Assembly: GCF_009914755.1 (NCBI RefSeq)
Contig: NC_060947.1
From: the human T2T-CHM13v2.0 reference genome, Homo sapiens
Length of the DNA: 64,000 nt
Reading direction: 5' to 3' (one strand)
The notes under the pieces are model-generated. The model made no database searches. It saw only the letters and a program-made list of their open reading frames with translations, and was not told the DNA's origin. Shown piece after piece: positions 24,607 to 26,919 of the stretch. Position 1 is the stretch's first letter. Each line of letters starts with the position of its first letter. A program made the translations under genes and the position numbers.

Positions 24607-25622
24607 AGTTCTCCTTGAAGAGGTCCTTCACATCCCTTGTAAGTTGGATTCCTAGGTATTTTATTCTTTTTGAAGCAATTGTGAATGGGAGTTCACTCAT
24701 GATTTGGGTCTCTGTCTGTTATTGGTGTATAAGTATGCTTGTGATTTTTGCACACTGAGTTTGTATCCTGAGACTTTGCTGAAGTTGCTTATCAGCTTAA
24801 GGAGATTTTGGGCTGAGACAATGGGGTTTTCTAGATATACAATCATGTCATCTGCAAACAGGGACAATTTGACTTCCTCTTTTCCTAATTGAATGCCCTT
24901 TATTTCCTTCTCCTGCCTGATTGTCCTGGCCAGAACTTCCAACACTATGTTGAATAGGAATGGTGAGAGAGGGCATCCCTGTCTTGTGCCAGTTTTCAAA
25001 GGGAATGCTTCCAGTTTTTGTCCATTCAGCATGATATTGGCTGTGGGTTTGTCATAGATAACTCTTATTATTTTGAGATACGTCCCATCAATACCTAATT
25101 TCTTGAGAGTTTTTAGCATGAAGGGTTGTTGAATTTTGTCAGAGGCCTTTTCTGCATCTATTGAGATAATCATGTGGTTTTTGTCTTTGGTTCTGTTTAT
25201 ATGCTGGATTACGTTTATTGATTTGCATATGTTGAACCAGCCTTGCATCCCAGGGATGAAGTCCACTTGATCATGGTGGATAAGCTTTTTGATGTGTTGC
25301 TGAATTCGGTTTGCCAGTATTTTATTGAGGATTTTTGCATCAATGTTCATCAAGGATATTGGTCTAAAATTCTCCTTTTTTGTTGTGTCTCTGCCAGGCT
25401 TTGGTATCAGGATGATGCTGGCCTCATCAAATGAGTTAGGGAGGATTCCCTCTTTTTCTATTGATTGGAATAGTTTCAGAAGGAATGGTACCAGCTCCTC
25501 CTTGTACCTCTGGTAGAATTCGGCTGTGAATCCATCTGGTCCTGGACTTTTTTTGGTTGGTAAGCTATTAATTATTGCCTCAATTTCAGAGCCTGTTATT
25601 GGTCTATTCAGAGATTCAACTT
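24607..25622 (-). mobile_element. L1PA ORF2 internal fragment (Z region plus RT domain), truncated at both ends, no poly(A)
   Basis: Near-identical to the L1 at ~8104-9119; encodes [15 protein letters not shown] and LFADDM motifs. Confidence 0.95.
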
Positions 25623-25634
25623 GCTGGTCTACCT
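25623..25634 (-). terminator. Degenerate Sal box (T3-equivalent) AGGTAGACCAGC at the L1 junction
   Basis: One substitution in the SalI core; directly abuts L1 sequence. Confidence 0.65.
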
Positions 25635-25679
25635 GGGACAGGGTGAGCCGCCAGCTAAGTCTCACGCCCTCCGGCGGCA

Positions 25680-25691
25680 GCTGGTCGACCT
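25680..25691 (-). terminator. Sal box (T2-equivalent) AGGTCGACCAGC
   Basis: Second GGTCGACCAG, 121 bp downstream of the first. Confidence 0.8.
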
Positions 25692-25800
25692 GGGAGGCCA
25701 GACCGAGAAGCGGTGGCGAGCGGAGGTTGGCGGGGTGTGGGGATGCCCTGGGCCTTGCCACCCCCTTTCACACCCCTTCCCCACGCCCCACCAGCGGTCT

Positions 25801-25812
25801 GCTGGTCGACCC
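25801..25812 (-). terminator. Sal box (T1-equivalent TTF-I site) GGGTCGACCAGC
   Basis: Exact human Sal-box consensus GGGTCGACCAG, preceded by a pyrimidine tract as in rDNA. Confidence 0.85.
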
Positions 25813-26919
25813 GTGCGGAGGAAAGAGGAGGAAGGATGCGCGAGGGCCGGAACGCCGGGTGGCCGCCCCCGGGCCCGCGGGGCCACCCCTGGGATAGGGG
25901 CCGGCGGGGCACGGACCCCGCTCAGCGCACCCGCCTCCGCGGTTCCCACCCACGCTCCCCGGACCCCGTCCCAGCCTGGAGGGGCGAGTCCCCCCCCCGG
26001 CGGTGAACGGGGAGGAGGCGGGAACCCAAGAAGCGGGGCGCGCCGAGCAGGGATGCGCCCCCCCGCCCCCCCAACCCCGGAAAATACATAGATTTACCAT
26101 ATAACACAATTCCTCTTGTGGGTATATATCCAAATGAATTGAAATCAATAATTTGAACAGATATTTGTATGCCCATTTTCACAGCAGCAATAAATGAAAG
26201 ATGGAAACCAACTCATATGTCCATCAACGGATAACTGGATAAAACGTGGTATATACACACAATGGAATATTTTTCAGCCTTATAAAGAAATGAAATTCTG
26301 ACATGTTACAACATGGATAAGCCCTGAAGACATTATTCTAAGTGAAATAAGCAGACACAGGAAGACAAATATTGTATGATTGCACTTATATGAGGTACTC
26401 AGAGCAGTCAAGTTGATAGAGACTGAAAGTAGAATGGTGACTGTCAGATGCTGGGGGAGAGGGCTGTGAGGAGTTATTGTTTATTTGGTACAGAGTTTTC
26501 ATTTAAAGAGATAACAAAAGATCTGGAAATAAATGGTGATAATTGTTGCACAATGTTAAGGTATTTAATGCCACTGAAGTGCATATTTAAAAATGGTTAA
26601 AATTTGCAATCTCATGTTATGTGGGTTTACCACAATGAAAAATAAAAATAAAGAATATTTGATGTTCTATTTATATTATTGACATATTTACATTATTAAA
26701 AACGTTATTAAATACATGGCAATTGTCTTTTAACCAAAATATTTGATTAATCTAATTATTGCAGAGATGGGCTTCTATTAACATGCCAGATAAAATAAAG
26801 TGTACTGTATTTTCTTTATGAGAATGATGGTGGCAGTCTTTTTTAAGAAAAGAACAGACAGGGATTTTTCTCAACATATTATCTATGTTGAGTATCTATT
26901 AGAATTGGCTGAATATTTA

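What the first reader, a model, noticed from the sequence alone, without database searches (positions are those of the whole stretch)
24607..26080. Chimeric rDNA-terminator / L1-RT insertion with no poly(A) and no TSD
Seen: on the minus strand, 458 bp of very GC-rich sequence with three Sal boxes joins directly to a 1,016-bp L1PA ORF2 fragment that lacks the L1 3' end and poly(A). The host L1MB reads through the site ('gaagttactca' | 'aaaatacatagatttacc') with no duplication, at most a few bases lost. Knowledge: the GC part matches the 45S rDNA 3'ETS and terminator region as I recall it. Known L1 chimeric retrogenes (U6-L1, U3-L1) have a small RNA 5' part, a polyadenylated L1 3' end and TSDs, while endonuclease-independent L1 insertions lack TSD and tail. 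Inference: this is a single break-repair insertion in which cDNA synthesis began internally on L1 RNA and switched to a Pol I transcript, or captured rDNA. The rDNA piece extends past T1 through T3, beyond the normal 47S end, so an RNA template would have to be a read-through transcript. I do not know of a described chimera of this class, but I cannot search for one.
Basis: partly seen in the sequence, partly recalled or inferred. Interest (0 to 1): 0.88.

Follow-up and report, generated by a model that had tools for sequence, protein, structure and literature searches.

The report
rDNA terminator piece fused to L1
A 1.47-kb insertion on human chrX joins a decayed copy of the ribosomal-DNA 3' spacer and its terminators to an internal piece of an L1 retrotransposon, and looks like an old chromosome break patched by L1 reverse transcriptase, a rare but already described kind of event.

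Summary
Window 25623-26078 (minus strand) aligns to the chr13 rDNA unit at 375/465 (81%). It runs from 123 nt past the 28S end through Sal boxes T1-T3. It abuts an internal L1 ORF2 fragment at 24607-25623, covering ORF2p residues about 446-783. There is no L1 3' end, no poly(A) and no target-site duplication. The host L1M reads through with 0-6 bp missing. The junction is unique in CHM13. Strong one-directional CpG decay rules out a mis-assembly.

My best reading (0.55) is one endonuclease-independent "non-classical" L1 insertion at a double-strand break. Priming would start inside L1 RNA, then switch to Pol I read-through RNA. Rivals are DNA capture of an rDNA fragment, a pre-existing chimeric template, two separate events, and a later deletion.

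The class is already in print. Sen 2007 found 15 of 21 such loci carrying extra non-L1 DNA, and Law & Burns reported 28S/L1 chimeras. Only the donor, a Pol I spacer with terminators, seems undescribed.

No primate genomes were available, so single-event origin and RNA origin remain untested. Interest is modest.

The parts
24561..24606 (+). Host L1M (old L1, ORF2 C-terminal region), left flank of the insertion
   Evidence: This flank aligns to related L1M copies immediately upstream of where the right flank aligns.
24607..25623 (-). Internal L1PA-type ORF2 fragment (reverse-transcriptase domain, ORF2p residues about 446-783). It lacks the L1 5' end, 3' end and poly(A). Base 24607 (A) is shared with the host, a 1-nt overlap.
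   Evidence: Four L1 copies align to exactly 24607-25623. The ORF2p alignment covers residues 446-749 at E=1e-186. The frame is open for 307 codons. The best other genomic copies are 96-97% identical. The fragment differs at 18 of 1016 sites from the majority of 12 copies. Junction bases are shown.
25622..25623 (.). L1/rDNA junction with 1-2 nt that fit both donors
   Evidence: L1 copies match through 25623. The main rDNA alignment starts at 25623, and alignments to the T4-T5-like modules reach 25622.
25623..26078 (-). Decayed copy of rDNA 3'ETS (+123) through terminators T1-T3; GC 75.7%, CpG o/e 0.71
   Evidence: 81% identity to chr13 rDNA units. The 28S end is at L002:1378. 22 of 61 mismatches are rDNA CpG to window TpG/CpA, with none in the reverse direction.
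25802..25812 (-). Sal box T1, 11/11 match to consensus
   Evidence: the consensus is quoted from PMC6281188.
25681..25691 (-). Sal box T2, 10/11 match
25624..25634 (-). Sal box T3, 9/11 match (degenerate). The rDNA piece ends 1-2 nt beyond it.
   Evidence: Read; aligned to the T3 box of L002 (box about 1935-1945, at the end of the alignment that stops at L002:1946).
26079..26080 (.). Two bases (GG on the + strand) that match neither rDNA nor host: untemplated filler
26081..26700 (+). Host L1M, right flank, continuing the same old L1 ORF2 C-terminal region
   Evidence: 40 scored matches to dispersed copies at 71-78% identity, from 9122 candidates. Adjacency to the left flank is shown.

Best explanation
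This is one non-classical (endonuclease-independent) L1 insertion that patched a double-strand break in an old L1M on chrX, probably about 10-20 million years ago. I infer the following steps. The 3' end of the left break end (...TTACTCA) annealed by one base inside L1 RNA, within ORF2. L1 reverse transcriptase copied about 1 kb of the RT-coding region. It then continued, by template switch or on a pre-ligated RNA, onto a Pol I transcript that had read through terminators T1-T3, and copied 456 nt back into the 3'ETS. Two untemplated bases were added, and the cDNA was joined to the other break end by end joining, with at most a few host bases lost. The sequence has since decayed and has no evident function.

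Shown: the composition, the boundaries, the shared orientation, the uniqueness of the junction, the absence of TSD, poly(A) and EN site, and the decay. Inferred: the single event, the RNA templates, the order of steps and the age.
For: The structure fits the printed definition of non-classical L1 insertions.
- There is no abutting duplication.
- The L1 is truncated at both ends, covering ORF2p about 446-783 of 1275.
- The primed strand reads CTCA/AA rather than TTTT/AA.
- Host loss is only 0-6 bp.
- Sen et al. report 15 of 21 such loci with 4-312 bp of extra non-L1 DNA, and 18 of 21 with a 5' truncation of at least 3 kb plus a 3' truncation. They also report template switches to U6 and GPD2 RNA.

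Other points:
- The rDNA and L1 parts are in the same sense. Template switching requires this, and 83% of 28S/L1 chimeras show it.
- The untemplated GG lies at the end where first-strand synthesis would finish.
- The L1 piece is as close to the majority of its relatives (1.77%) as those relatives are to each other (0.89-1.97%), and it keeps 307 open codons. Its source was therefore a then-fresh L1, as expected for L1 RNA and not for random old L1 DNA.
- CpG decay is similar in the two parts: 21 of 78 sites in the rDNA part and 1 of 5 in the L1 part.
- The junction 100-mer has no second copy in CHM13. Of 20 scored candidates, only the window itself spans it.
Against: - The single event is unproven, because no orthologous primate locus could be examined.
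- Nothing marks the rDNA piece as RNA-derived: there is no splice and no tail.
- RNA past T1 is rare (established knowledge, recalled). The piece ends 1-2 nt after box T3, which is not where TTF-I-paused Pol I transcripts are said to end (recalled).
- Non-CpG divergence of the rDNA part from modern arrays is 39 of 437 aligned bases, plus 28 gap columns. That is about five times the L1 part's 1.8%. It needs either fast spacer turnover in the arrays, a divergent donor, or an older rDNA insertion. I could not calibrate this, because S4 Table of PMC6281188 is an old .xls and was not readable.
- The 1-2 nt overlaps at the junctions are no more than chance often gives.
Confidence: 0.55

Rival explanations
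1. DNA-level patch. A broken or extrachromosomal rDNA fragment, or DNA synthesis templated on rDNA by microhomology-mediated switching, was joined to an L1 cDNA or L1 DNA fragment during end joining of the same break.
For: The junction signature (1-2 nt overlaps, 2-nt filler, small deletion) is the same one end joining gives. Sen et al. interpret some extra nucleotides as DNA copied or captured from other chromosomes. The rDNA piece ends 1-2 nt from the edge of Sal box T3. Sal-box/TTF-I sites are replication fork barriers and so possible break sites; that point is recalled and was not tested here. The piece includes sequence past T1 that is always present in DNA but rare in RNA.
Against: The shared orientation with L1 would be only a 1-in-2 coincidence. 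rDNA is a small fraction of genomic DNA, so random capture of this stretch is unlikely unless rDNA fragments are enriched. The L1 part looks like a fresh active-family copy, which puts an RT complex at the break anyway.
Confidence: 0.2
2. Pre-existing chimeric template. An ancestral rDNA unit, or an rDNA pseudo-unit, carried a 5'-truncated L1 just after T3. A stretch spanning that junction (a read-through RNA or a DNA fragment) was copied into chrX, so no template switch was needed.
For: It explains the shared orientation and the clean junction in one step. rDNA pseudogenes at array edges and elsewhere are documented (PMC5381670, passages read).
Against: No second copy of the junction exists in CHM13: of 20 candidates, only the window itself spans the 100-mer. 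Modern units have T4/T5 after T3, not L1. A 28-mer from the 3'ETS gives 1 forward match (the window) and 220 reverse matches; the 100 listed lie on C13, C14 and C15 at regular 42.5-49 kb spacing, as in tandem arrays (121 not listed).
Confidence: 0.07
3. Two independent insertions at the same point. One part entered the L1M first, and the second landed exactly at its boundary.
For: The rDNA part is much more diverged from its modern source than the L1 part is from its relatives. That could mean it is older.
Against: It needs the second insertion to fall exactly at the edge of the first, with no loss of either part and no TSD for either event. CpG decay fractions are similar, 27% against 20%, although n=5 for the L1 part. 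Co-inserted extra DNA is the rule for non-classical insertions (15 of 21).
Confidence: 0.08
4. A classical TPRT chimera (rDNA-RNA/L1 with poly(A) and TSD, like the 28S/L1 chimeras) later lost its L1 3' half, its tail and one TSD copy through a deletion.
For: 28S/L1 chimeras made by TPRT exist (n=18).
Against: The deletion would have to end within about 0-6 bp of the original target site for the host L1M to read through. Sen et al. give the same argument against this scenario.
Confidence: 0.03
5. Assembly chimera: an rDNA read was mis-joined into chrX.
For: None found.
Against: The rDNA piece is only 81% identical to array copies, with 22 one-directional CpG-decay changes. The L1 piece is at most 97.3% identical to any other scored copy. 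A mis-join of present-day reads would be close to 100% identical to its source.
Confidence: 0.01

Closest known systems
Non-classical (endonuclease-independent) L1 insertions, NCLI (Sen et al. 2007, PMC1920257; Morrish et al. 2002, recalled)
   Same: No TSD, no poly(A), an L1 truncated at both ends and confined to the 3' half of the element, a non-consensus target, a small target deletion, and extra non-L1 sequence at the L1 5' side.
   Different: The extra segment here is 456 nt. That is longer than the 4-312 bp reported, and it comes from the Pol I 3' spacer and terminators, a donor not mentioned in that paper (0 hits for rDNA, rRNA or ribosomal). The empty ancestral site, which is part of their definition, could not be checked.
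28S rRNA/L1 and U6/L1 chimeric insertions (Law & Burns 2025/2026; Buzdin et al., recalled)
   Same: A Pol I or Pol III RNA piece sits 5' of L1 in the same sense, and the size range is similar (28S pieces are 50-482 nt).
   Different: Those chimeras carry the L1 3' end, a poly(A), TSDs and EN-type target sites, and they derive from mature stable RNAs. This locus has none of these hallmarks and derives from a spacer past the first terminator.
Class 2 templated sequence insertions (Onozawa & Aplan 2016, PMC5110952)
   Same: A patch at a break with no TSD or poly(A), showing microdeletion, microhomology and untemplated bases, and proposed to be reverse-transcribed RNA.
   Different: Here the patch is bipartite and one half is L1 itself.
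Dispersed rDNA pseudogenes and rDNA-like sequence (Robicheau et al. 2017, PMC5381670)
   Same: rDNA-derived sequence lying outside the arrays.
   Different: Those are degraded, near-full units including IGS, or short hits discussed as DNA-level remnants. The paper does not mention retrotransposition, chimeras or terminators (0 occurrences each). This locus is a 456-nt piece fused to L1.

Membership tests
Non-classical / endonuclease-independent L1 insertion (NCLI) | No target-site duplication of any length | tested here: met
   No repeat abuts the insert. The only shared 8-mer lies 16 nt from the left junction.
Non-classical / endonuclease-independent L1 insertion (NCLI) | L1 3' end truncated by at least 20 bp, with no poly(A) | tested here: met
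   The L1 ends at about ORF2p residue 783 of 1275, and host sequence follows directly.
Non-classical / endonuclease-independent L1 insertion (NCLI) | Target deviates from the TTTT/A consensus | tested here: met
   The primed (+) strand reads ...CTCA/AAAAT. Only 1 of the 4 bases before the junction is T.
Non-classical / endonuclease-independent L1 insertion (NCLI) | Empty ancestral site in an outgroup species whose boundaries match the insert | not testable with these tools
   No primate genomes are held. Paralogous L1M copies served as a proxy for the empty site.
Classical chimeric L1 retrogene (U6/L1, 28S/L1 type) | L1 3' end with poly(A), a TSD of at least 7 bp, and an EN motif | tested here: not met
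Classical chimeric L1 retrogene (U6/L1, 28S/L1 type) | Non-L1 RNA part 5' of L1, usually in the same sense | tested here: met
   The rDNA-sense and L1-sense strands are both the window's minus strand.
L1 5' transduction | Flanking sequence attached to a full-length L1 5' end | tested here: not met
   The L1 starts at ORF2p residue about 445.
rDNA-derived sequence (45S 3'ETS / terminator region) | Significant colinear match to the rDNA unit downstream of 28S, including Sal boxes | tested here: met
   E=5e-117 at 81% identity. The match begins 123 nt past the 28S end. Sal boxes match 11/11, 10/11 and 9/11.
Class 2 templated sequence insertion | Derived from RNA | not testable with these tools
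   There is no intron or tail to mark an RNA origin. The only support is indirect: orientation and the freshness of the L1.

The most novel reading that the evidence does not exclude
The spacer piece is a cDNA of a nascent Pol I read-through transcript, copied by L1 ORF2p after it left L1 RNA. It would then be a genomic fossil showing that the L1 reverse-transcription complex can use short-lived, strictly nucleolar spacer RNA while repairing a chromosomal break, for instance in perinucleolar X chromatin. It would be the first pre-rRNA-spacer/L1 chimera and the first rRNA-type chimera made by the endonuclease-independent route.
Probability: 0.45. Interest if true: 0.5.

Novelty: new member of a known kind. 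Interest (0 to 1): 0.35.

Why it matters
If the RNA reading is right, the locus places L1 reverse transcription next to nascent Pol I transcripts. That fits the known bias of L1 chimeras toward nucleolar or nucleolus-passing RNAs (U3, U6, 5S, 28S). It also shows that chimera catalogues that require TSDs miss a TSD-less class.

In practical terms, the 456-nt piece is unmasked, CpG-island-like sequence (GC 76%, CpG o/e 0.71). It can attract rDNA-derived short reads or be mistaken for a regulatory island. As a single, old and apparently inert locus, it does not open a major question by itself.

Tried and rejected
- An Rfam scan of 23000-28000 gave only Alu/SRP-type and sub-threshold miRNA hits, with nothing for the rDNA piece.
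- A BLAST of 3.4 kb of the rDNA unit against the whole window found no second rDNA-derived stretch.
- I looked for the locus or its class in print, as follows.
  - Robicheau 2017 has no words for retrotransposition, chimera or terminator.
  - Sen 2007 has no chrX, rDNA or rRNA.
  - The Law & Burns preprint and the Cell Genomics version have no 45S, ETS or spacer text. Their four readable supplementary spreadsheets have no '45S', 'RNA45S' or 'pre-ribosomal'. Their PDF supplements could not be read.
  - Two further full-text searches found no spacer/L1 chimera.
  - The ape sex-chromosome paper reports no rDNA arrays on any X.
- I tried to calibrate rDNA spacer divergence from Agrawal & Ganley, but the relevant S4 Table is an old .xls and was not readable.
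Eight 1-kb regions were then fetched.
- Exact L1PA and L1M subfamily names could not be assigned, because no repeat-consensus library is held. 'L1PA3-5-like' rests on 1.8% divergence and recalled subfamily ages.
- I rejected the 8-mer GGAAAATA (24584 and 26079) as a TSD. The left copy is not at the junction, and six of its eight bases are host L1M sequence in both places.

Full report
**What is there.** The window is T2T-CHM13 chrX. The sequence at 24607-26080 is a bipartite insertion inside an old L1M. GC content jumps from about 0.4 to 0.7-0.83 between 25620 and 26080.

**The rDNA part.** A search of the window's own assembly with 25560-26100 scored 40 of 250 candidates. These were the locus itself and 39 tandem copies on chr13, spaced 46,970 bp apart. 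Each of the 39 is 81% identical over query 64-519, which is window 25623-26078, and each lies on the opposite strand.
- In one such unit (L002), Rfam places the 3' end of 28S rRNA at position 1378.
- My alignment puts the window piece at L002:1501-1946, with 375/465 identities and 28 gap columns.
- The piece is therefore rDNA 3'ETS from +123 to about +568, in rDNA sense on the window's minus strand, with no 28S sequence.
- I scored the terminators against the 11-nt human consensus quoted by Agrawal & Ganley (PMC6281188, passages read). T1 (25802-25812) matches 11/11 and T2 (25681-25691) matches 10/11, which is 2 matches in the window against 0.14 expected. T3 (25624-25634) matches 9/11.
- No other rDNA-like stretch occurs in the 64 kb.

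**The L1 part.** Four independent L1 copies align to exactly 24607-25623.
- The minus-strand translation is open for 307 codons.
- It aligns to human ORF2p residues 446-749 with 16 differences in 304. By length the fragment ends near residue 783 of 1275.
- It therefore lacks about 490 codons, the 3'UTR and the poly(A), as well as everything upstream of the RT domain.

**Junctions.**
- Left: the host reads ...GTTACTC, then an A at 24607 that fits both host and L1, then L1.
- Middle: L1 matches through 25623 and rDNA begins at 25622 or 25623, a 1-2 nt overlap.
- Right: rDNA homology stops at 26078. Two bases (GG) fit neither partner, and then the host resumes.
- Overlaps this short are common by chance, so they carry little weight.

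**Host read-through.** I fetched 29 related L1M copies (40 of 9122 candidates scored, at 71-78% identity).
- In seven of them, both flanks hit adjacent positions with the longer left-flank matches. I aligned those seven, and the flanks lie 0, 3, 4, 5, 5, 5 and 6 bp apart.
- Three more copies with shorter left-flank hits extrapolate to 4, 5 and 11 bp.
- In the remaining copies the 46-nt left flank gave no hit or an unrelated one.
- No duplication abuts the insert. The only shared 8-mer lies 16 nt from the left junction.
- The strand that would have primed first-strand synthesis reads CTCA/AA, not TTTT/AA.

**Real, unique and old.**
- The 100-mer across the L1/rDNA junction is spanned only by the window itself. 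The other 19 of 20 scored candidates match the L1 side only.
- A 28-mer from the 3'ETS (up to 2 mismatches) occurs once forward, in the window, and 220 times in reverse. The 100 listed places lie on chr13, chr14 and chr15 at regular 42.5-49 kb spacing, as in tandem arrays; 121 places were not listed.
- Of 61 mismatches to the modern rDNA, 22 are rDNA CpG to window TpG/CpA, and none go the other way. In all, 21 of 78 rDNA CpG sites have decayed this way. The other mismatches are 30 transversions and 9 other transitions.
- The L1 piece differs at 18 of 1016 sites (1.77%) from the majority of 12 other copies. Its eight closest relatives differ by 0.89-1.97% on the same measure, and the best pairwise identity is 97.3%. 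Those relatives were chosen for similarity to the window, so 1.77% is a lower bound.
- This level of divergence excludes a mis-assembly of present-day reads.
- Using recalled L1PA subfamily ages (Khan et al. 2006, not read here), it suggests an L1PA3-5-like fragment about 10-20 million years old. That figure is an inference.

**Mechanism.** The anatomy matches the non-classical, endonuclease-independent L1 insertions of Sen et al. 2007 (PMC1920257; passages read).
- Their loci lack TSDs and poly(A) and sit at non-consensus targets.
- 18 of 21 had a 5' truncation of at least 3 kb in addition to their 3' truncation.
- 18 of 21 were associated with target deletions.
- 15 of 21 carry 4-312 bp of extra non-L1 DNA. 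Some of that DNA is attributed to RT template switching (U6, GPD2 mRNA), and some to DNA copied from other chromosomes.
- They estimate about 2000-2800 such events in primate genomes.

Onozawa & Aplan (PMC5110952, passages read) describe class 2 templated insertions with the same junction signature and propose reverse-transcribed RNA patches. Law & Burns (bioRxiv 10.1101/2025.02.02.635956 and PMC13174262; passages read, supplementary spreadsheets searched) report 18 28S rRNA/L1 chimeras of 50-482 nt. Of those, 83% are in the sense orientation, but they are of the classical TSD-bearing type.

My best reading (0.55) is a single break-repair event. Priming would begin inside L1 RNA at the left break end. 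About 1 kb would be copied, followed by a switch onto a Pol I read-through RNA, 456 nt more, two untemplated bases, and end joining. Four points favour RNA and RT involvement.
- The two parts share one orientation.
- The filler lies at the end where first-strand synthesis would finish.
- The L1 piece was as fresh as its family at the time of insertion.
- On my own rough, recalled estimates, pre-rRNA makes up a far larger share of nuclear RNA than this stretch does of genomic DNA.

**What speaks against it, or stays open.**
- No primate genomes or reads were available, so neither the single event nor the age could be tested.
- Nothing marks the rDNA piece as RNA-derived.
- RNA past T1 is rare. 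The piece ends 1-2 nt after box T3, and by recalled knowledge of TTF-I pausing that is not a normal Pol I stop. The same coincidence, that TTF-I/Sal boxes are replication fork barriers (recalled), gives the DNA-capture rival some support (0.20).
- The rDNA part's non-CpG divergence (39 of 437, plus 28 gap columns) is about five times that of the L1 part. This requires fast spacer turnover in the arrays, a divergent donor, or an older rDNA insertion. I could not calibrate it.
- The remaining rivals are a pre-existing chimeric template (0.07), two independent events (0.08), a classical chimera later trimmed by a deletion (0.03) and an assembly error (0.01).

**Novelty.** The kind of event is known. 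What I did not find in print is a Pol I spacer or terminator piece as the partner of L1, or an rRNA-type chimera of the TSD-less class (searches; papers read as listed above). These searches cover open-access full text only, and the PDF supplements of Law & Burns could not be read. I rate the locus a new member of a known kind, of modest interest.

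Noticed in passing
window 24268-24560 (+): An Alu with a 15-A tail (AluY-like by my recall of diagnostic bases) sits 46 bp left of the insertion. 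The host flanks on its two sides overlap by roughly 3-24 bp when mapped on related L1M copies, which is a TSD signature. It is a classical TPRT insertion right beside the non-classical one. Rfam SRP and mir-1268 hits mark it, and the flank overlap is seen.
   Followed up: partly
window 25623-26078: The rDNA-derived piece still meets compositional CpG-island criteria (456 nt, GC 75.7%, 46 CpG, o/e 0.71) and is not repeat-masked. It could attract rDNA-derived short reads or be called a CpG island.
   Followed up: partly
window 25622-25636: The rDNA piece ends 1-2 nt beyond the edge of Sal box T3. With three boxes in about 570 nt, such a coincidence has roughly a 5% chance (my estimate, made post hoc). 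It might reflect a break or stop at a TTF-I-bound site. It remains unexplained.
   Followed up: partly
window about 25735-25760 (minus strand, between T1 and T2): The window copy has a 16-nt stretch with no counterpart in the modern human unit, plus several other indels in G/C runs. Whether these are ancestral rDNA states or later changes is unknown.
   Followed up: no
window 24697-25767 (-): A 356-codon stop-to-stop open frame runs from the rDNA part across the junction into the L1 ORF2 frame. There is no evidence that it is anything but chance read-in to the preserved ORF2 frame.
   Followed up: no
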